Positions 11,346 through 62,665 of a DNA stretch of 64,000 nucleotides are shown here, one piece after another. Under the pieces are notes generated by a model that saw nothing but the letters and a program-made list of their open reading frames with translations, was not told the origin of the DNA and ran no database searches. Every line of letters begins with the position of its first letter. The first letter of the stretch is position 1. The position numbers and the translations under genes are program-made. This DNA comes from Candidatus Nomurabacteria bacterium GW2011_GWD2_36_14. GTDB lineage: Bacteria; Patescibacteriota; Minisyncoccia; Phycocordibacterales; UBA9973. Location: the NCBI GenBank assembly GCA_000991405.1, contig LBRL01000001.1:145547-209546 (forward strand), read 5' to 3'.

Positions 11346-11353
11346 AAAGATAG

Positions 11354-11433
11354 CGAAGTAGGATTGTTAAAATTTTTATCCGTGTCGGAGCCCTTTAGGG
11401 TAAAGCGGGAAAAATTTTAATAATCCTACGAAG
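11354..11433 (+). repeat. CGAAG-bracketed covarying hairpin element, copy 1 (invariant apex GTCGGAGCCCTTTAGGGTAAAGC at 11384..11406)
   Basis: CGAAG at 11354-11358 and 11429-11433. The ~23-nt AT-rich arms taggattgttaaaatttttatcc and ggaaaaattttaataatccta pair with one G-T. The element begins 4 nt after the prfA stop. Confidence 0.8.
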
Positions 11434-11437
11434 CGAT

Positions 11438-12409
11438 CTAATCTTCTTCCTCTTCCCCTATTACTCCAGCTGAAAGTGCCTCAATAATTTTAGTTATATT
11501 TCCTTCCATGATTCCGGGGATATTGGACCAAGATTGCTTTATACGGTGGTCGGTGACGCGATCTTGAGGAAAGTTGTATGTGCGGATCTTCTCACTTCTG
11601 TCATTTGTACCTATTTGAGCTTTTCTATCCCCTGAATATTTTTTAGCATCTTCCTCATCTTTAATCATTTGAAGCTTAGAAGTAAGCATCATCATAGCCT
11701 TTTCTCTGTTGCCAAGTTGGGTTCTCTCGGTTGTACAACGTACGTCTTCACCTGTTGGCTTATGTATCAGGCGAACAGCTGTCTCTACTTTGTTCACATT
11801 TTGCCCTCCTGCTCCACCAGAGCGTGAATACTCTATCTCTATATCGGCTGGGTTTATGATTATTGTTATCTTCTTTTTCAAAGGAAGCACAGCCACAGAT
11901 GCAGTAGAAGTATGTATTCTGCCATTCTTCTCTGTGGCGGGGATACGTTGAACTCTATGAACTCCAGTCTCATAGCGTAGAAGTTTGTATACATCTTTAC
12001 CTTTTACTTCTATAGAAGCTTCTTTGTAGCCCCCAGCACTACTTAAGGATTCATTGAGGATTTTCCAGTTCCAATTTTTCTCTTCAGAGAATCTTTCGTA
12101 CATATGTGCCAGCTCCCATGCAAAAAGTGAAGCTTCATCCCCTCCTGCTCCAGCTCTAACTTCTAGAATAATTTCATTGGGGAATTCTTCTTCCTCTTTT
12201 TCACTTTTCATTATTTCTTCTAGTTGTCTTTCTATTGCCTCCTTTTGAAATTTAATATTCTGGATTTCTTCTTCTGCTAAGTCGCGTAGACTTTCATCAG
12301 CTCTCACCATTTCATTTACTTTCTCTTCCTCACTCAAAAGGCGCTCATATTCTAGAGCGAAGTAACTAGTCTTGTGATCTTTCTTAAGTTGTTCTAAGTC
12401 TAATTGCAT
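11438..12409 (-). CDS. prfA: Peptide chain release factor 1
   Basis: [20 protein letters not shown] (GGQ), a PAT tripeptide ([17 protein letters not shown]) diagnostic of RF1, and an RF-1 domain. The track ORF begins with GTG at 12430; ATG at 12409 (MQLDLEQL) is preferred. Confidence 0.85.
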
Positions 12410-22443: not shown

Positions 22444-23481
22444 TTATTTGTTTATTGTATTCCCTGTTTTAATAACGTGATCTACTAGTGTATATGTATA
22501 CCCCATTTCGTTGTCATACCAGCCGAGAACTTTCACAAGATTGCCACCAACTACGCGAGTCATTTCTAGGTCTGCGATACAAGGGTGACTTTCTCCTAAT
22601 ATATCTGAAGAGACTAGGTTGTCTGTTGTGACAGTGAAAAGATTGTGCCAACGTGGATCTTCTGAGGCCTTCTTCATGATCTCATTTACTTCTTCTTTGG
22701 TAGTATCTCTCTTTGCTATGAAAGTTACATCTACTATTGAGCCTGCTGGTACTGGCACACGGATGGATATACCATCAAATAGTCCCCTGAGAACTGGGAA
22801 GGCTTCTGTCACAGCGATAGCTGCTCCTGTAGAACTTGGAATGATGTTTTGAGCGGCTGCACGACCTTCACGAAGATCTTTTTTGCTTGGACCGTCTACG
22901 AGTGCTTGAGTGGCTGTATATCCATGGACTGTGTTTAAGATAGCCTTCTCTATTCCCAAAGATTCATGCATTATAGCTATAAGAGGACTAGCTGCATTGG
23001 TAGTACAAGAAGCATTGGAGGTAATATCGCAAGTGCCAAACTTATCTTCGTTGACTCCTAGAAGGATTGTTTCGCCGTGAACTGTACTCTCACCGCCCTT
23101 GGAAGGTGCAGATATCACTACCTTCTTTGCTCCTTGTTCTAAGTGAAATTTTGCTTTATCAAATGAAGTAAAGAGGCCTGTGGATTCTACTACTACATCA
23201 ATATCTAAATCTTTCCAAGGAAGTTTAGTTGTATCTTTTTCTGAAATAAATTTAACTTCCTTTCCATCAATAACCAAGTCAGTACCCACAACTTCTACTT
23301 TATGTCCCCAATTTCTATAAACAGTATCATGACGAAGTAAATACGAAAGACTTTCAAGAGAACCTAAGTCATTCACAGCTACTATTTCTATATCGTTTCT
23401 CTCCCATGCAATTTTCAAAAATGCTCTTCCAATTCTCCCAAAACCATTTATCGCAACTTTTATTTTTTTTGTATTTTCCAT
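22444..23481 (-). CDS. gap: Glyceraldehyde-3-phosphate dehydrogenase
   Basis: KVAINGFGRIGR, SNASCTTN, 345 aa. Confidence 0.95.
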   Translation of the reverse strand: MENTKKIKVAINGFGRIGRAFLKIAWERNDIEIVAVNDLGSLESLSYLLRHDTVYRNWGHKVEVVGTDLVIDGKEVKFISEKDTTKLPWKDLDIDVVVESTGLFTSFDKAKFHLEQGAKKVVISAPSKGGESTVHGETILLGVNEDKFGTCDITSNASCTTNAASPLIAIMHESLGIEKAILNTVHGYTATQALVDGPSKKDLREGRAAAQNIIPSSTGAAIAVTEAFPVLRGLFDGISIRVPVPAGSIVDVTFIAKRDTTKEEVNEIMKKASEDPRWHNLFTVTTDNLVSSDILGESHPCIADLEMTRVVGGNLVKVLGWYDNEMGYTYTLVDHVIKTGNTINK

Positions 23482-23505
23482 ATAAATAAATTATATCATA
23501 GATAA

Positions 23506-23585
23506 CGAAGCAAGAATATGTGAATTATGAGTCGCGTCGGAGCCCTTTAGGGTAAAGCGTGAATAATTCATATATTCTTGCGAAG
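23506..23585 (+). repeat. CGAAG-bracketed covarying hairpin element, copy 2 (apex 23536..23558)
   Basis: CGAAG at 23506-23510 and 23581-23585. Arms caagaatatgtgaattat / ataattcatatattcttg pair with one G-T. The element lies 2 nt after the gatB stop and 27 nt before the gap ATG. Confidence 0.8.
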
Positions 23586-23587
23586 TT

Positions 23588-25048
23588 TTATTTTAATAAT
23601 TCTTTTAATAATTTCTGAACCATTTGTGGGTTTGCACTCCCCTTACTTTCTTTCATAACTTGACCAACTAGGGACATTATAGCATTTTCTTTGCCCCCTT
23701 TATATGTCTCTACGACGGCAGGATTAGCATCTATGACTTTCTGTACTATTTCTTTAAGTGCGCCTTCGTCGTGGTTTTGAATTAAGCCTTTTTCTGTAGC
23801 AATCTTTAGAGGAGATTCATCTTTTAATACAATAAAAGCAAGTATATCCTTGGCTCCACGAGAAGAGACCTTATCTTCGCTTACCATATTTATAAGTTCA
23901 GCGAAATTTTTAACATGTGGAAGTTGGACTTCCGAATTTATCTTTTTAAGACCTAAATAATCAGATGTTATATAGTTTGATGCAGTTTTGATTAGATCTT
24001 TATTTTTTAAAATATTTGCAACTTCTTCAAACCAAGTACCAAGTTTTTCGTCTAGAATATAACTCTCTATGTCTTCGTCTTTAATACCATAATTATTTCT
24101 GTATCTATTCCTTCTTGTTTCTGGTAGTTCAGGAAGTTCGCTACGCATCTTCTCTATATCGAAAATTTTATTCAAGAATAACTTTGGCAAGTCTGGATCT
24201 GGGAAGTAACGGTAATCGTTCGCATTCTCTTTTGAACGCTGAGAGAAGGTGGATTGCTTGTTCTCATCCCATCCACGAGTCTCTTGGACTATTTCATCAC
24301 CACGACCTTCTTCTAGTAATTCAGTCATTCTTTTCGTTTCGTATAGGGCTGCACGCTCCATGGCACGGAATGAGTTAATATTCTTCACTTCAACTTTGGT
24401 ACCGAAAACTTTTGGATCTTCTGATATAGAAATATTTAGCTCAACACGCATTTGTCCCTTTTCCATATTGGCTTCTGATACTCCTAAATATCGCAGTAGT
24501 ATCTGTAATTCACGTCCGAAGTCTCCTGCTTCTTTTGCAGAGTGTATAACTGGCTCAGTCACAAGCTCCATAAGAGGTACTCCAGCACGATTGAAGTCTA
24601 CAAGTGAATAATCACCCCTGTCGTGCTTGCTTGTAGCTGTATCTTCTTCTAAGTGTACACGAGTAATATCTACTCCTTTAAGGGAGCCCCCTTTAACTAT
24701 TGGGTACTTGTATTGTGATATCTGGTACGCTTTCGGTATATCTGGATAGAAGTAATTTTTACGATCAAATTCTGTGAAGTCAGCAATGTTGGCTCCGAGA
24801 GCAAGTCCTACCTTTATAACGCTTTCTACTGCCTTCTTGTTTATAACAGGAAGAGTTCCAGGATGGGCCATACAAACTGGGCAAATATTTACATTTGGTT
24901 TTATTTCATCTGGATCATTCTTGCACCCACAAAACATTTTAGAATTGGTGTTAAGTTCTGCGTGGATCTCTAGGCCTATGGTAGTATAATATTGTTTAGA
25001 CATATAAGGAGTATAGCAAAATTTTAGAAAATTAGAATTGGTATACAT
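23588..25048 (-). CDS. gatB: Asp-tRNA(Asn)/Glu-tRNA(Gln) amidotransferase subunit B
   Basis: YTTIGLEIHAELNTNSKMFCGC ... FDRKNYFYPDIPKAYQISQY. Confidence 0.9.
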   Translation of the reverse strand: MYTNSNFLKFCYTPYMSKQYYTTIGLEIHAELNTNSKMFCGCKNDPDEIKPNVNICPVCMAHPGTLPVINKKAVESVIKVGLALGANIADFTEFDRKNYFYPDIPKAYQISQYKYPIVKGGSLKGVDITRVHLEEDTATSKHDRGDYSLVDFNRAGVPLMELVTEPVIHSAKEAGDFGRELQILLRYLGVSEANMEKGQMRVELNISISEDPKVFGTKVEVKNINSFRAMERAALYETKRMTELLEEGRGDEIVQETRGWDENKQSTFSQRSKENANDYRYFPDPDLPKLFLNKIFDIEKMRSELPELPETRRNRYRNNYGIKDEDIESYILDEKLGTWFEEVANILKNKDLIKTASNYITSDYLGLKKINSEVQLPHVKNFAELINMVSEDKVSSRGAKDILAFIVLKDESPLKIATEKGLIQNHDEGALKEIVQKVIDANPAVVETYKGGKENAIMSLVGQVMKESKGSANPQMVQKLLKELLK

Positions 25049-25079: not shown

Positions 25080-25562
25080 ATGAATAAGAAAAGAAGATGG
25101 ACCGAAAAACAATTAGAAGAAGCTGTTACCCTTTCTAAAAGTTACAGAAATGTAATTAAACTTTTAGGGTTAAAACCTACGGGAGGTAATTATGATCAAG
25201 TTAAAAAATATATTAAACAGAGTAGATTATCTGCTGATCATTTTACTGGCAAGGTGTGGAATAAAGGATTAAAATTTCCTGATAGAAATTATATAGAATT
25301 AAAAGATATCCTAATTAAAGATAGTTCTTATCAGAGTCATAAGTTGAAAAAAAGACTATTCTCTGCTAGAATAAAAGAACCTAAATGTGAGATTTGTAAA
25401 TGGGCTAAATATTCTATAGACGGAAGACTCCCTTTAGAATTAGACCATATTAATGGGAATAGACATGATAATAGATTAGAAAATCTTAGGGTATTATGTC
25501 CAAATTGCCATAGCTTGCAAGTGACACATAGAGGTAAAAATATAAAAGCCCGGGTGGTGTAA
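25080..25562 (+). CDS. Free-standing HNH endonuclease
   Basis: ELDHINGNRHDNRLENLRVLCPNCHSLQ (H-N-H with zinc-binding Cys pairs). The last 15 nt overlap the 5' end of tRNA-Leu. Confidence 0.8.
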   Translation: MNKKRRWTEKQLEEAVTLSKSYRNVIKLLGLKPTGGNYDQVKKYIKQSRLSADHFTGKVWNKGLKFPDRNYIELKDILIKDSSYQSHKLKKRLFSARIKEPKCEICKWAKYSIDGRLPLELDHINGNRHDNRLENLRVLCPNCHSLQVTHRGKNIKARVV

Positions 25563-54823: not shown

Positions 54824-56716
54824 TTATTTCTGTTCTGGATTCTCGTTTACCTCTGCGTCCTTTATTTCAGGACCTTGCTCTTCTGGAGGTTTGGCTTCCT
54901 CTTTAGGAGCTTCGTTCGCCTTGCTCATGGCTTCGCCAATTTTCGACATTTCATTTGAAAGTTCTTCTGTTGCTTTCTTTATAGCTTCCATGTCGTTGCC
55001 TTCTTTTGCAGTTTTTAACGCAGTTATTTTATTTTCAATTTCTGTTTTTATCTCTGGAGTAATTTTATCGCCGTACTCTTTGACAGACTTCTCTGCTGTG
55101 AAGATCATCATTTCAGCTGTATTTTTATGATCAGCTAATTCTTTCTTCTTGGCATCTTCTTCGGCGTGAGCTTCGGCTTCATCACGCATCTTCTTGATAT
55201 CTGCTTCTGTAAGTCCTGATGAAGCTTCAATACGAATAGACTGTACTTTGCCCGAAGCTTTATCCATAGCTTTTACATTTAAGATTCCATTGGCATCTAC
55301 ATCGAAAGTAACTTCCACTTGAGGAATACCGCGTGGTGAAGGTGGAATACCATCTAAGATGAATCTACCAAGAGACTTGTTGTCGCTTGCCATAGGACGC
55401 TCACCTTGAGTGATGTGTATTTCTACACTTGTCTGATTGTCGGCAGCAGTTGAGAATATCTGTGACTTTGATGAAGGTATGGTTGTGTTGCGTTCTACAA
55501 GCTTGGTAGCAACCCCTCCAAGAGTTTCAATACCAAGAGATAGCGGAATGACATCAAGGAGAAGTACATCGCGTACGTCGCCTTGTAGGACTCCAGCTTG
55601 GACAGCAGCACCGAGAGCTACAACTTCATCTGGGTTAATAGAACGATTTGGTTCCTTGTTAAATAACTTTTTAACTTCTTCGACAATTTTAGGCATTCTT
55701 GTCTGTCCTCCAACTAAGATGATTTCATTGATCTCATTCATTTTAAATGGAGAAGCTTCTACTGCTCTTTTTGTAATTTCAATAGAGCGAGTGACGTACT
55801 CTTCTGCAAGAGACTCAAGTACTGCACGAGACATCTTCAAAAGTAAATGCTTGGGACCAGAAGCATCTGAAGTGATAAATGGAATATTAATTTCTGAATC
55901 TGTTGTTGTTGAAAGTTCATGTTTTGTCTTCTCAGCAGCCTCCTTTAGACGTTGAAGTGCAAGGACATCCTTAGTAACGTCAATACCTGACTCCTTCTTG
56001 TATTCATCGGCAATCCACTTCACAATCTTCTGGTCGATATCTTCACCTCCCATGTGCGAGTCGCCGTCTGTAGATTTCACTTCGATAACATCATCACCAA
56101 CTTCTAGAACTGACACGTCGAACGTTCCTCCTCCAAAGTCGTAAACAACTATCTTCTCATTCTTCTTTGTATTGAATCCATAAGCAAGAGCGGCCGCAGT
56201 AGGTTCATTGATAATACGCTTTACATCAAGTCCTGCAATGATTCCGGCATCCTTTGTTGCTTTTCTTTGAGCATCGTTGAAATATGCAGGTACTGTAATG
56301 ACTGCTTCGGTAATCTTCTCGCCGAGTTTTGCTTCTACATCTGCCTTAATCTTACTTAAAATCATTGCAGAAATTTCTTCTGGGCGTAGCCAACTATCTC
56401 CAATCTTTGTTTCTACTCCACCTGTACTTCCTTTCTGAATTTTATAAGGAATAGTCTTCTCATCTTTTTGTATTTCTGGATCATCGTACATGTGACCGAT
56501 GAATCTCTTAATACCGTAAACAGTATTTTCGGGATTTGTCACTGCCTGACGCTTCGCTAGAAGACCCACCATACGATCACCATTCTTGGTAATTGCTACT
56601 ACAGAAGGAGTTGTACGTGCACCCTCAATATTCTCAATAATTTTTGGTTGACCACCTTCAATGATAGCTACTGCACTATTTGTTGTACCCAAATCGATAC
56701 CTATAATTTTACTCAT
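54824..56716 (-). CDS. dnaK: Chaperone DnaK (Hsp70)
   Basis: [23 protein letters not shown], 630 aa. Confidence 0.95.
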
Positions 56717-56749: not shown

Positions 56750-56828
56750 CGTAGCAGAGATATTAAAATTTTTATCAGCGTCGGAGCCCTTTAGGGTAAA
56801 GCTGTGAAAATTTTAATATTTCTGCGAA
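56750..56828 (+). repeat. CGAAG-bracketed covarying hairpin element, copy 3 (apex 56780..56802), in the dnaK leader
   Basis: CGtAG at 56750-56754 and CGAAG at 56824-56828. Arms cagagatattaaaatttttatcagc / gctgtgaaaattttaatatttctg pair with one G-T. The element lies 32 nt upstream of the dnaK ATG. Confidence 0.8.
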
Positions 56829-56857: not shown

Positions 56858-56885
56858 ATTATATACTAACTTTAATTTTTGACAA
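56858..56885 (-). promoter_or_regulatory. Candidate dnaK promoter (-35 TTGTCA, 16-nt spacer, -10 TATAAT)
   Basis: Minus strand reads cTTGTCAaaaattaaagttagtaTATAATaag, so the transcript would begin just upstream of hairpin copy 3. Confidence 0.5.
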
Positions 56886-56910
56886 GTATTTAGCGACCGC
56901 TAAATACTTG
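56883..56910. promoter_or_regulatory. Perfect inverted repeat CAAGTATTTAGCG-ac-CGCTAAATACTTG (candidate operator)
   Basis: 13-bp arms with a 2-nt spacer. It overlaps the -35 of the dnaK promoter and abuts the -35 of the divergent regulator-gene promoter. Confidence 0.55.
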
Positions 56911-56939
56911 TTGAATATTATATACACATATGATATACT
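56911..56939 (+). promoter_or_regulatory. Candidate promoter of the PaaX-like regulator gene (-35 TTGAAT, 17-nt spacer, -10 TATACT)
   Basis: TTGAATattatatacacatatgaTATACT, ending 9 nt before the ATG at 56949. Confidence 0.45.
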
Positions 56940-56948
56940 GTCAATACC

Positions 56949-57473
56949 ATGAAAAAGCGTGATTTTTCAAAGAAAATTATAAAAATCCTATCCGAAAGAC
57001 CTGCTGTTTCTGTGCCAGAATTGGAGGAGAGGATTGTATTGAATAAAGATAGTCAATACGCTCTAAATCGCTCCATAAAGGGTCTAAAGGACGCAGGATT
57101 GATAGAAAGTATATACTCAGGTCAAAACCAATATACAAAGCTCACAAAAGAAGGTAAAAAACGAGCAAATAGTTTAAAACTTGAATGTGAGAATACTCTT
57201 ATTAGCAACACCTGGGACGGATTTTGGAGAATAATTCTGCTTGATATGCCTGAGGATAGAAAAAGTGAACGGGAAGCACTTCGCTACTTACTCAAGAAAG
57301 CAGGCTTCGCCTGCTTAAAGAACTCTGTCTGGATATCTATGTACCCTTTCGAACATCTATTCACAAATATAAAAAAGGATTTAAATTTATCTACTGAACT
57401 TATAATTATAGTCACTGACAAAATCGACAAAGAAACAGAAAAAGAATTCTTTAGCTTATGCCAAAAGGTGTGA
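56949..57473 (+). CDS. Short PaaX-like winged-helix transcriptional regulator
   Basis: N-terminal wHTH (KIIKILSERPAVSVPELEERIV). The C-terminus, WDGFWRIILLDMPEDRKSEREALRYLLKKAGFACLKNSVWIS, matches the PaaX_C pattern (W-G-W...LP...R...LR..L...GFG.L...VW.S). Confidence 0.45.
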   Translation: MKKRDFSKKIIKILSERPAVSVPELEERIVLNKDSQYALNRSIKGLKDAGLIESIYSGQNQYTKLTKEGKKRANSLKLECENTLISNTWDGFWRIILLDMPEDRKSEREALRYLLKKAGFACLKNSVWISMYPFEHLFTNIKKDLNLSTELIIIVTDKIDKETEKEFFSLCQKV

Positions 57474-62150: not shown

Positions 62151-62251
62151 ATTTTACTTCATAAAACGAAAGAAAAATAAAGGGCAGAAACCCTATATTT
62201 ATAACTTTGGTGTTACCGAATTATACTACACTATTTAAATAAAAAAGCAAG

Positions 62252-62320
62252 CCCCCACACCTATATTTTTATTGCAGATATAATCTGCTGTTTACAACTA
62301 TTAAAATATAGGTGTGGGGG
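62252..62320. mobile_element. MITE-like inverted-repeat element, copy A, flanked by a 4-bp direct repeat CAAG
   Basis: Perfect 18-bp TIRs cccccacacctatatttt / aaaatataggtgtggggg enclose an inner hairpin gcagat-ataat-ctgc. CAAG lies at 62248-62251 and at 62321-62324. The element abuts the infA stop. Confidence 0.65.
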
Positions 62321-62330
62321 CAAGCCCTCT

Positions 62331-62546: not shown

Positions 62547-62590
62547 TTCTAATGTGCTTTAATCATAACAAAAATTCTATTCTCCGTCAA

Positions 62591-62660
62591 CCTCCACACC
62601 CATATTTTTATAGTTTTCAACGCAGATTTTCAATCTGCAATAAAAATATAGGTGTGGGGG
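62591..62660. mobile_element. MITE-like inverted-repeat element, copy B, flanked by a 4-bp direct repeat TCAA
   Basis: TIRs cctccacacccatattttt / aaaaatataggtgtggggg (2 mismatches) with an inner hairpin gcagat-tttcaa-tctgc. TCAA lies at 62587-62590 and 62661-62664. The element is 45 nt upstream of the infA ATG. Confidence 0.65.
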
Positions 62661-62665
62661 TCAAA

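What the first reader, a model, noticed from the sequence alone, without database searches (positions are those of the whole stretch)
11354..11433. Three-copy ~80-nt hairpin family: invariant 23-nt apex, covarying AT-rich stems, CGAAG on both ends
Three copies carry the identical 23-mer GTCGGAGCCCTTTAGGGTAAAGC, all in the same orientation, at 11354..11433, 23506..23585 and 56750..56828.

In each copy the 23-mer sits at the apex of a ~20-25-bp inverted repeat. The arm sequences differ between copies but stay complementary within a copy:
- copy 1: taggattgttaaaatttttatcc / ggaaaaattttaataatccta
- copy 2: caagaatatgtgaattat / ataattcatatattcttg
- copy 3: cagagatattaaaatttttatcagc / gctgtgaaaattttaatatttctg

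This is compensatory covariation: conserved structure with variable sequence. It is the reverse of what a classical MITE shows, where the terminal inverted repeats are conserved and the interior varies.

Every copy is bracketed by the pentamer CGAAG on both sides (copy 3 left is CGtAG), like a 5-bp direct repeat.

The single stem mismatch in each copy is a G-T when read on the + strand, so G·U-compatible there and C·A on the minus strand. That hints the functional RNA, if any, is read from the + strand, antisense to every neighbouring gene.

The apex can fold two mutually exclusive ways: CCC-UUUA-GGG or CUUUA-GGG-UAAAG.

Positions:
- copy 1 starts 4 nt after the prfA stop and precedes a terminator hairpin;
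- copy 2 lies 2 nt after the gatB stop and 27 nt before the gap ATG;
- copy 3 lies 32 nt before the dnaK ATG, inside the predicted dnaK leader.

So the element occupies a 3'UTR, an intercistronic spacer and a 5'UTR of highly expressed genes. Candidate roles are a structured cis-RNA (processing, stability or protein-binding site), a small antisense RNA gene, or a DNA-level repeat carrying a protein-binding apex.
Basis: seen in the sequence. Interest (0 to 1): 0.8.

Follow-up and report, generated by a model that had tools for sequence, protein, structure and literature searches.

The report
Hairpin repeat that lives inside genes
The three hairpins belong to an apparently undescribed family of ~90-base palindromic repeats in tiny-genome CPR/Patescibacteria bacteria that sit between genes and also in-frame inside essential genes (much like the Rickettsia palindromic elements), yet keep a folded structure on the strand opposite to those genes.

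Summary
The 23-mer occurs three times, all on the + strand (0 expected), at the tip of ~85-95-nt hairpins. The interpretation needs revision.

An exact-core scan of 185,579 species genomes found about 108 hairpin copies in about 41 Patescibacteria/CPR genomes and no hairpin copy elsewhere. Stem covariation is very strong: 94% of cells paired, 18 of 24 pairs with double changes, 0/500 shuffles as good. Wobble pairs fall almost only on the element strand (G·U 146 against A·C 27).

Unexpectedly, 34 of about 110 copies lie inside long ORFs (UvrA, UvrC, DprA, RNase HII, Tgt, IleRS, LeuRS and others). All are antisense to the element strand and all use one frame, encoding …RFTLKGSD(A/T)…. Intergenic copies are also mostly antisense to their neighbours (42 against 9).

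"CGAAG…CGAAG" is not a target duplication. It is the two halves of a GNA/GNA internal loop, found in only one subfamily. Only the apex loop segments GU[C/A]GG[A/G]…UAAAGC are really conserved.

Orthologous copies keep the fold over long divergence. I found no Rfam match, no paper, no target duplication and no transposase.

Best reading: an RPE-like palindromic element family recognised in single-stranded form. How it moves, and whether it has any host function, are unknown.

The parts
11349..11438 (+). Copy 1, full hairpin (outer stem GAU.GC/GC.AUC, GAA/GAA loop, ~20-bp AT stem, apex). The core 23-mer is at 11384-11406. It lies in the 3' region of prfA, which is on the - strand.
   Evidence: -38.1 kcal/mol, z -8.1; 96.4 bits
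23504..23587 (+). Copy 2, full hairpin (outer stem AAC/GUU, GAA/GAA loop, main stem, apex). The core is at 23536-23558. It fills the gatB-gap spacer. The -35-like TTCACA of the gap promoter match lies in its arm.
   Evidence: -38.0, z -7.2; 105.4 bits
56746..56833 (+). Copy 3, full hairpin (outer stem UUAAC/GUUAA, GUA/GAA loop, main stem, apex). The core is at 56780-56802. It lies inside the dnaK leader, antisense to it.
   Evidence: -38.0, z -8.8; 95.2 bits; orthologous copy in L074
11438..12430 (-). prfA (RF-1). Its stop codon abuts the base of copy 1.
23588..25048 (-). gatB. Its stop codon abuts the base of copy 2.
22444..23481 (-). gap (GAPDH), downstream of copy 2. An extended -10 (TGATATAAT) lies between the element and the ATG.
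54824..56716 (-). dnaK. Copy 3 lies in its leader. Promoter matches are at 56944-56917 (12/12) and 56885-56858 (11/12) on the - strand.

Best explanation
The three hairpins are members of an interspersed palindromic element family of the Patescibacteria/CPR. It behaves like the Rickettsia palindromic elements (RPEs).

Anatomy. Each copy is a ~85-95-bp sequence that is a hairpin from its first to its last base. It has:
- a short outer stem;
- in some subfamilies, a purine GNA/GNA or GA/GA internal loop;
- a ~20-bp AT-rich stem;
- a small upper helix;
- an asymmetric internal loop, 5'-GU[C/A]GG[A/G] opposite UAAAGC-3';
- a small apical hairpin.

Location. Copies occupy the few free places of these compact genomes (3' ends, spacers, leaders). 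They also sit inside housekeeping genes, always antisense to the element strand and in the one reading frame that lacks stop codons. There they are translated as a ~27-31-residue hydrophilic loop (...SQxYxNSS-RFTLKGSD[A/T]-xxNLxxxAS...).

Shown here: family membership, distribution, in-frame intragenic copies, covariation, strand asymmetry, persistence at orthologous sites, near-identical copies at different loci in one genome, in-frame internal deletions and tandem copies, and the absence of a target duplication.

Inferred: the element is propagated and/or maintained through a single-stranded form of the element strand (ssDNA, or less likely RNA). An unidentified trans-acting factor would recognise its structure and apex loop, not its terminal sequences. 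Orientation and frame are then filtered by selection, because only the stop-free, weaker-in-mRNA orientation is tolerated in transcribed DNA.
For: - Distribution: the exact-core scan gave 103 stretches, of which about 108 copies in about 41 CPR genomes are hairpins. The 2 matches outside the CPR have no hairpin.
- Recent spread: near-identical copies lie at three loci of one genome, fen_1328 (L017, L022, L054).
- Intragenic copies: 34 copies are spanned by ORFs of 0.5-3.7 kb, all on the opposite strand and all in one frame.
- Hosts: RF-unrelated housekeeping proteins, with several sites per family.
- Frame: the standard frame is stop-free in 34/34 intragenic and 38/73 intergenic copies. No other frame exceeds 12/73 among intergenic copies.
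- Covariation: 94.4% of cells are paired, against 71.7% in shuffles and 30-49% with slid partners. 539 cells have double changes against 171 expected, with 0/500 shuffles as good.
- Strand asymmetry: G.U 146 against A.C 27. The asymmetry holds in genes (45:11) and between genes (101:16). It runs against the compositional skew of that strand.
- Stability: the element strand is more stable in 102/106 copies.
- Persistence: orthologous copies keep pairing with diverged arms, in the gatB-gap spacer at 99, 93 and 86% GAPDH identity and in the dnaK leader (window against L074).
- One RNase HII site shows filled, tandem, apex-swapped and 60-nt in-frame-deleted alleles.
- No target-site duplication and no conserved terminal sequence.
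- The element-encoded residues are modelled as a low-confidence loop.
- No Rfam family and no paper.
Against: - No enzyme, no autonomous parent element and no clean empty site were found, so mobility rests on indirect evidence.
- Long-term maintenance of pairing at orthologous loci, with several core variants coexisting in one genome, is not what a decaying selfish insert predicts. It leaves room for a function at each locus.
- The structured strand is antisense to co-directional genes. That is the opposite polarity to what IS200/IS605-type insertion into the lagging-strand template would give (my knowledge of Ton-Hoang et al. 2010).
- Translation of the intragenic copies is inferred from open frames, not shown.
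Confidence: 0.6

Rival explanations
1. A host-beneficial structured single-stranded element. Each copy would act in cis or as a short RNA or ssDNA from the element strand. It might be a binding site for a conserved CPR protein, or a signal that acts on antisense transcripts or on the replication fork. Selection at every locus would maintain it, and its presence inside ORFs would be tolerated because one frame is open.
For: - The hairpin and loop motifs are maintained in situ at orthologous sites over 86-99% GAPDH identity, with arms strongly diverged.
- Wobble pairs fall only on one strand, even in intergenic copies.
- The purine-rich internal loops (GNA/GNA, GUCGGA/AAA) are typical of folded RNA.
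- The apical stem covaries while the loop segments are fixed.
- Different core variants coexist in a genome, so the conservation is not simple homogenisation.
Against: - No promoter is associated with the copies.
- Intragenic copies in UvrA, UvrC, DprA, RNase HII and aminoacyl-tRNA synthetases make a locus-specific regulatory role implausible.
- The T-tract test for an antisense terminator is flat: 22 against 23 of 72.
- Relatives lose the element when the locus is rearranged, without an obvious replacement.
- In-frame deletions and tandem copies at one site look like the dynamics of a parasite.
- The distribution is patchy: about 41 of 185,579 species genomes scanned carry the exact core.
Confidence: 0.2
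2. A DNA-level palindrome kept complementary by template switching, with selection against a stable hairpin in the mRNA. The arms would be re-perfected by intrastrand template-switch mutation, so no structure is selected for. The wobble asymmetry would arise because mismatches that weaken the mRNA hairpin (A.C in the mRNA, which is G.T on the element strand) are favoured in transcribed DNA.
For: - All window copies are in transcribed positions, antisense to the mRNA.
- The mRNA-sense hairpin is about 8 kcal/mol weaker.
- In the central stem, transversion-type mismatches (29) are more common than A.C (12). That is as expected if mismatches that destabilise the mRNA are tolerated or favoured (counts).
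- Template switching is known to create compensatory-looking changes (my knowledge: Monttinen and Loytynoja 2022).
Against: - G.U (50) still exceeds transversion mismatches (29).
- This model does not explain the fixed apex loop, the invariant G.U closing the apical stem, or the conserved purine loops on one strand.
- It does not explain why the family exists at many loci and in many genomes.
Confidence: 0.1
3. A classical MITE or REP-type element, mobilised by a DDE transposase through terminal inverted repeats, or by a RAYT/IS200-type HUH enzyme.
For: - It is small, non-coding on its own, interspersed and palindromic.
- Some copies start with GTAG-like GNAG next to the stem, as REPs do (abstract of PMC3733652).
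- The lack of a target duplication fits HUH enzymes.
Against: - The termini are not conserved; they covary.
- There is no target duplication, which argues against DDE-type MITEs.
- The size is 85-95 nt and a third of copies are intragenic, which argues against REPs.
- N in GNAG is A > G > T > C, so GTAG is not the rule.
- No transposase lies in about 0.75 Mb of flanking DNA next to paired copies.
- The polarity is opposite to the IS608 expectation.
Confidence: 0.07
4. A protein-level module or an intron-like insert. Either the conserved entity is the peptide RFTLKGSD, or the element is spliced out of the mRNA.
For: - FTLKGSD is invariant in the 34 intragenic copies.
- The insert lies between secondary-structure elements of RNase HII.
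Against: - Two thirds of copies are intergenic, and half of those carry stop codons in that frame.
- Peptide invariance follows from selecting copies by the DNA core. Other apex types give other peptides at the same site.
- A spliced insert would not need to be in-frame and stop-free, yet 34/34 are.
- Intergenic copies separate complete, distinct genes.
- There is no bulge-helix-bulge or ribozyme match.
Confidence: 0.03

Closest known systems
Rickettsia palindromic elements (RPE-1 and relatives; Ogata et al. 2000, as summarised in PMC10969869)
   Same: - Both are short hairpin-forming interspersed repeats in a reduced genome.
- Both are found between genes and, unusually often, in-frame inside unrelated housekeeping genes.
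- In both, orientation and frame are fixed, a conserved peptide is encoded, and the peptide appears to be tolerated as a surface segment.
- In both, no transposase and no mobility mechanism are known.
   Different: - A different phylum (Patescibacteria/CPR, not Rickettsia).
- Shorter: about 90 bp, against about 100-150 bp for RPEs.
- No sequence relationship is shown.
- Here the fold is demonstrably constrained on one strand, the strand antisense to the host genes, with a fixed apex internal loop and freely covarying stems.
- Here orthologous copies keep the fold over long divergence.
- I could not test whether RPEs show the same strand asymmetry.
REP/BIME elements and their RAYT (IS200/IS605-like HUH) enzymes
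   Same: - Both are strand-specific imperfect palindromes with a short purine-containing tag next to the stem (GTAG in REPs, GNAG here in one subfamily).
- Neither has a target duplication.
- REPs are recognised as folded single strands, which is what I infer here.
   Different: - REPs are 20-40 nt, extragenic and conserved in sequence within a genome, and they are associated with a RAYT gene.
- This element is 85-95 nt and often intragenic. Its stems vary, the tag is not fixed, and no RAYT was seen.
MITEs (e.g. Correia, ERIC, Nezha)
   Same: Both are small, non-autonomous-looking interspersed repeats that can form hairpins. Some MITEs occasionally create in-frame fusions.
   Different: MITEs are defined by conserved terminal inverted repeats, target-site duplications and a related IS. 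Here the termini covary, there is no duplication and no IS was found.
Integron attC sites
   Same: In both, structure is conserved more than sequence, and one strand is recognised when folded.
   Different: attC sites conserve the base of the hairpin (R/L boxes) and vary at the apex, and they lie in cassette arrays beside an integrase. Here the apex loop is conserved, the base varies, and the copies are dispersed.
Coding palindromes in organelle genes (Nematomorpha mitochondria, PMC6649704; Volvox palindromic repeats, PMC2670323)
   Same: In both, long inverted repeats are embedded in protein-coding sequence and both arms are translated.
   Different: Those are in organelles, lack a conserved apex motif, and do not form a single dispersed family with strand-specific wobble pairs. 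I saw these only as abstracts.

Membership tests
RPE-like intragenic palindromic elements (functional class) | An interspersed repeat able to form a long hairpin, with many copies per genome. | tested here: met
   3 copies in 64 kb of the window. Up to 12 or more exact-core copies in one genome, and about 108 copies in about 41 genomes. The folds are about -38 to -40 kcal/mol.
RPE-like intragenic palindromic elements (functional class) | Inserted in-frame in unrelated protein-coding genes, in a constant orientation and frame, encoding a conserved peptide. | tested here: met
   34 of 34 intragenic copies are on the opposite strand and in a single frame, encoding RFTLKGSD. The hosts include UvrA, UvrC, DprA, RNase HII, Tgt, RluD-like, IleRS, LeuRS, TsaD and TagA-like proteins.
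RPE family proper (Rickettsia RPE-1 to RPE-10) | Sequence homology to RPE consensus sequences, and occurrence in Rickettsia. | not testable with these tools
   No RPE consensus library was available. The hosts here are Patescibacteria. I therefore file it as 'works like', not as a member.
MITE | Conserved terminal inverted repeats shared with a parent IS. | tested here: not met
   The terminal and basal sequences differ between copies and covary. The basal motif is subfamily-specific. No transposase lies next to paired copies.
MITE | A target-site duplication flanking each copy. | tested here: not met
   Direct-repeat matches at seven assumed boundary offsets stay close to the permutation expectation. 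CGAAG...CGAAG is an internal loop of the hairpin.
REP / RAYT system | A 20-40-nt extragenic palindrome with a fixed GTAG or CGTC head. | tested here: not met
   The length is 85-95 nt, and 31% of copies are intragenic. The head is GNAG with N = A 13, G 11, T 5, C 4 on the left side, and it occurs only in 33 of 106 copies.
REP / RAYT system | An associated RAYT (Y1 HUH) gene in the genome. | not tested
   Only about 8-kb loci were available. None of the genes between copies is a transposase. No whole-genome profile was possible.
Known RNA families (Rfam 15) | A covariance-model match at or near the gathering score. | tested here: not met
   Only two tRNAs reach the gathering score in the window. 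At E<=10 the element gives only far-below-threshold miRNA and snoRNA noise.
Intrinsic terminator | A hairpin followed by a T/U tract on the transcribed strand. | tested here: not met
   A T-run of 4 or more follows 22 of 72 intergenic copies on the element strand and 23 of 72 on the gene-sense strand. No terminator call falls on the three copies.
Integron attC | Conserved R/L boxes at the hairpin base, a variable apex, and cassette arrays next to intI. | tested here: not met
   The conservation pattern is the opposite. The copies are dispersed among housekeeping genes.

The most novel reading that the evidence does not exclude
The element is not merely selfish DNA. It would be a CPR-specific structured single-stranded signal (ssDNA or antisense RNA) that a conserved host factor reads through its GU[C/A]GG[A/G]/UAAAGC loop. 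Selection would maintain it at each locus, including inside essential ORFs, where the same DNA must also encode a tolerated peptide. That would be a dual-coding nucleic-acid element with a genome-wide role, for example in fork or transcript handling or in DNA-uptake or repair-linked recognition. About half of the independent intragenic sites are in UvrA, UvrC, DprA and RNase HII.
Probability: 0.2. Interest if true: 0.85.

Novelty: new variant of a known kind. Interest (0 to 1): 0.72.

Why it matters
- **A second case of a rare phenomenon.** RPE-type elements, hairpin repeats translated inside essential genes, have essentially been a Rickettsia curiosity. Finding an analogous and apparently unrelated family across the Patescibacteria suggests the phenomenon recurs in reduced genomes. 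It is also a source of insertions that inflate and diversify CPR housekeeping proteins.
- **A practical warning for annotation.** These ~30-residue inserts, and the gene calls around intergenic copies, will confuse alignments, domain boundaries and phylogenies of CPR marker proteins.
- **An unusually clear evolutionary signal.** The family shows strand-specific compensatory evolution in DNA that is simultaneously coding on the other strand, and the fold is maintained for long periods at orthologous sites. Neither 'dead selfish DNA' nor any known transposition mechanism explains this.
- **It is testable.** Existing groundwater metatranscriptomes and metaproteomes could address it directly.

Tried and rejected
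- **Rfam**, at gathering and permissive thresholds: nothing.
- **CGAAG as a target-site duplication:** rejected.
- **Outer stem copied from the target site:** rejected, because near-identical full-length copies sit at different loci.
- **Peptide searches.** The word-indexed profile search returned 4 short fragments. The exhaustive phmmer search with the 33-aa window peptide had no power, and its best hit was an unrelated repetitive 2998-aa protein.
- **Empty sites.** The short RNase HII alleles turned out to be in-frame internal deletions of a resident copy. gatB-gap spacers without the element all have an extra gene inserted, so there is no clean empty site. All contigs read that carry the window's exact GAPDH had the same neighbourhood.
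- **Autonomous parent or transposase between paired copies:** only housekeeping genes.
- **Viral contigs:** no copy.
- **Antisense-terminator idea:** T-tracts are equal on both strands.
- **Replication versus transcription polarity from base skew:** the skew just follows gene direction, so this is uninformative.
- **My own provisional idea that copy 3 is untranscribed:** wrong, because strong promoter matches lie upstream of it.
- **Failed scripts.** Two loop-walking scripts stalled at internal loops and their outputs were discarded.
- **K-turn, sarcin-ricin or UAA/GAN reading of the apex loop:** considered from memory only. It has no canonical K-turn signature and I could not test it.

Full report
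**1. The observation**

The 23-mer GTCGGAGCCCTTTAGGGTAAAGC occurs three times in the window, all on the + strand (11384, 23536, 56780). No further site appears with up to three mismatches, and none is expected by chance. Each copy is the tip of a long hairpin. The + strand folds at about -38 kcal/mol (z -7 to -9), the complement only at about -25. The arms differ between copies and remain complementary.

The fold also shows that the hairpin does not stop at CGAAG. The C of the left CGAAG pairs with the last G of the right one. A further 3-6 bp pair outside, and the two GAA (GUA in copy 3) triplets face each other as a 3x3 internal loop.

Pfam confirms the neighbouring genes (RF-1, GatB, GAPDH, DnaK), all on the - strand. 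Consensus scans place copy 3 downstream of two strong - strand promoter matches, so it is inside the dnaK leader. Copy 1 lies between the prfA stop and a small hairpin plus a TG-extended promoter. Copy 2 lies between the gatB stop and the gap promoter, whose -35-like hexamer is in the element's arm. No Rfam family matches at the gathering or the permissive threshold.

**2. The family**

I scanned one genome per species (185,579 species) for the core with a free 4-nt loop. This returned 103 stretches. All but two (which are chance matches without a hairpin) come from Patescibacteria/CPR metagenome-assembled genomes. Their record titles name Nomurabacteria, Nealsonbacteria, Vogelbacteria, Minisyncoccales, Paceibacterota, Parcubacteria and 'Saccharibacteria'. 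The last label is on third-party assemblies and may be generic. In total there are about 108 copies in about 41 genomes, with up to 12 or more in one genome. No copy was found in 2.9 million viral contigs.

The window's own genome is an ~0.8-Mb scaffold that recurs in many samples.

In one genome (fen_1328), three copies at different loci are nearly identical over their full length (L017, L022, L054). So the family has spread recently there.

**3. Structure and strand**

An almost ungapped alignment of 106 distinct copies gives a consensus of 24 pairs. Eighteen of these show compensatory double changes, and many show all four Watson-Crick types (for example AU 31, GC 28, UA 20, CG 15 at one pair).

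- 94.4% of cells are paired, against 71.7% after shuffling partners and 30-49% when partners are slid.
- 539 cells have changes on both sides, against 171 expected.
- No shuffle out of 500 reaches the observed score.

Mismatches are strongly asymmetric. In the variable helices there are 146 G·U/U·G but only 27 A·C/C·A, and the closing pair of the apical stem is an invariant G·U. A strand-neutral arm alignment gave the same direction, 191 against 69. The element strand is the more stable strand in 102 of 106 copies, at -39.6 against -31.4 kcal/mol. The asymmetry holds inside genes (45:11) and between genes (101:16).

The window's + strand is C- and T-rich, and that skew simply follows gene direction. 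A compositional bias would therefore predict more A·C on this strand, not fewer. A cruciform, which needs both strands to fold, would not produce such an asymmetry. The constraint therefore acts on a single-stranded form of the element strand, or, as a rival reading, against stability of the complementary mRNA hairpin.

**4. What is and is not conserved**

A covariance model built from the alignment finds only the three copies in the window (95-105 bits; everything else is below 31 bits). In 0.72 Mb of CPR loci it finds nine further copies whose core differs:

- the apical stem lengthens (GCCCAG-UACU-CUGGGU);
- G·U becomes G-C;
- the core becomes GUAGGG...GGGGUAAAGC;
- in one copy, a 20-nt hairpin is nested in the loop.

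The segments GU[C/A]GG[A/G] on the 5' side and UAAAGC on the 3' side persist throughout. The 'invariant 23-mer' is therefore partly an effect of searching with it.

The basal motif is subfamily-specific:

- GNA/GNA in 33 of 106 copies (N = A > G > T > C), with the flanking pair covarying C-G 16 and U-A 13;
- GA/GA in 18 copies;
- in many others the stem is continuous, as in the Tgt copies, where the left CGAAG pairs with a right CTTCG.

No target-site duplication appears at any assumed boundary.

**5. Copies inside genes**

Thirty-four of about 110 copies are spanned by open frames of 0.5-3.7 kb. All of those frames are on the strand opposite the element strand, and all are in the same phase, so the core reads (R)FTLKGSD(A/T).

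The hosts are unrelated housekeeping proteins: UvrA (at least three sites), UvrC (at least two sites, with two copies in one gene in L089), DprA (two sites), RNase HII, Tgt, an RluD-type pseudouridine synthase, IleRS, LeuRS, TsaD and a TagA-like enzyme.

That frame is stop-free in 34 of 34 intragenic copies and in 38 of 73 intergenic copies. No other frame exceeds 12 of 73 among the intergenic copies. Translatability is therefore partly built into the family and is enforced only inside genes, which argues for translation rather than splicing.

Intragenic copies keep the hairpin at least as well as intergenic ones, at 94.1 against 92.9% paired. Intergenic copies are also mostly antisense to both neighbours (42 against 9). 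They separate complete, distinct genes.

An AlphaFold model of the RNase HII from the window's genome has modest overall confidence (pLDDT 61). It leaves the element-encoded residues (about 118-140) as an unstructured, low-confidence loop between core elements. This is compatible with a tolerated surface insertion but does not prove it.

**6. Evolution at fixed sites**

Among 120 close RNase HII homologues, the same position shows:

- 37-40-residue inserts of several apex types (RFTLKGSD, (R/V)FTP(E/K)GPY, RFTQSTGAY);
- quite different apex modules on similar stem-encoded flanks;
- 47-57-residue forms with about 1.5 tandem copies;
- 17-residue forms.

At the DNA level, the short forms retain the outer left arm and the CTTCR repeat of the matching subtype. 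They are therefore 60-nt in-frame internal deletions of a resident element, not virgin sites.

In the gatB-gap spacer:

- a 99%-identical relative has the same copy;
- relatives at 93% and 86% GAPDH identity carry an orthologous element with strongly diverged but fully paired arms, a remodelled apical hairpin (CCCAG-UAAU-CUGGG), the conserved loop segments and a longer outer stem;
- relatives with an extra gene inserted there lack the element, and one has an ordinary terminator instead.

The dnaK-leader copy and its orthologue in a related genome differ by two independent changes in one arm. Both changes produce G·T on the element strand.

Several core variants coexist in single genomes, so the conservation is not genome-wide homogenisation.

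**7. Interpretation**

What is shown is an RPE-like family. It is a hairpin repeat of reduced genomes that lies between genes and in-frame within unrelated essential genes, in a fixed orientation and frame. It has no target duplication, no conserved termini and no associated enzyme in view (compare the RPE summary in PMC10969869).

What I infer is that the element strand is recognised in single-stranded, folded form through its apex loop by an unidentified factor. I also infer that orientation and frame are filtered by selection.

The main difficulty is that long-term maintenance of the fold at orthologous sites, on the strand antisense to genes, is not expected for decaying selfish DNA. It also has the opposite polarity to IS200/IS605-type insertion. 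I therefore keep three rivals open:

- a host-level function for the folded strand (about 0.2);
- a purely mutational maintenance of the palindrome, combined with selection against mRNA structure (about 0.1);
- a classical MITE or REP-type mobilisation mechanism (about 0.07).

A test for an antisense terminator was negative.

**8. Novelty**

Full-text searches linking palindromic elements, MITEs or the peptide to CPR/Patescibacteria/Parcubacteria found nothing relevant. I rate it a new variant of a known kind (RPE-like). Two features go beyond the known kind: the demonstrable strand-specific structural constraint, and the in-situ persistence.

Noticed in passing
window 62251-62321 and 62590-62661: A second, unrelated hairpin family. 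Two copies with conserved stems (CCCCCACACCTATATTTTTAT / ATAAAAATATAGGTGTGGGGG) have an apex that is inverted between them. They flank a ~70-aa - strand ORF that reads like IF-1 (infA) by eye.
   Followed up: partly
loci L007, L024, L027, L041, L051, L072, L076, L085, L089, L092, L099, L101 and the RNase HII group: About 8-10 of roughly 15 independent intragenic insertion sites are in DNA repair or recombination genes (UvrA, UvrC, DprA, RNase HII). This is reminiscent of the bias of inteins and of DNA-uptake sequences towards genome-maintenance genes. I did no statistics beyond counting.
   Followed up: partly
P0025, P0058, P0064, P0085, P0108, P0043, P0073 etc. (RNase HII site); L027 UvrA: Other palindromic-looking insert families share the stem-encoded flanks but have different apex modules (...FARSSDLLAENSFSEDGSSARPSQKAS......NFCPCRPQYSGLSGENLDNSVEQS...). 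They occupy the same RNase HII site. L027 UvrA has a different ~38-aa insert exactly where other UvrAs carry the element.
   Followed up: no
L078 3586-4320; P0008, P0010: About 1.5 element copies lie in tandem within RNase HII (...[33 protein letters not shown]...). This suggests insertion into, or recombination with, a resident copy.
   Followed up: partly
window 23482-23503 and homologous spacers in L109-L114: An extended -10 (TGATATAAT) lies only about 13-22 nt upstream of the gap ATG in all relatives. This implies very short leaders or near-leaderless mRNAs in these genomes.
   Followed up: no
window 56873-56920: A 23-bp-arm inverted repeat overlaps perfect divergent promoter matches (TTGACA...TATAAT). 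It lies between dnaK and a PaaX-like regulator gene (56949-57473) and looks like an operator. The scan also called it terminator-like.
   Followed up: no
window 25080-25562 (+); L104 420-902: A 160-aa ORF with a weak HNH_3 hit lies next to gatB, and may be a free-standing HNH endonuclease. I saw no link to the element.
   Followed up: no
L085 1330-1465: One element copy carries a 20-nt GC-rich hairpin nested in its apical loop, an insertion within the insertion.
   Followed up: no
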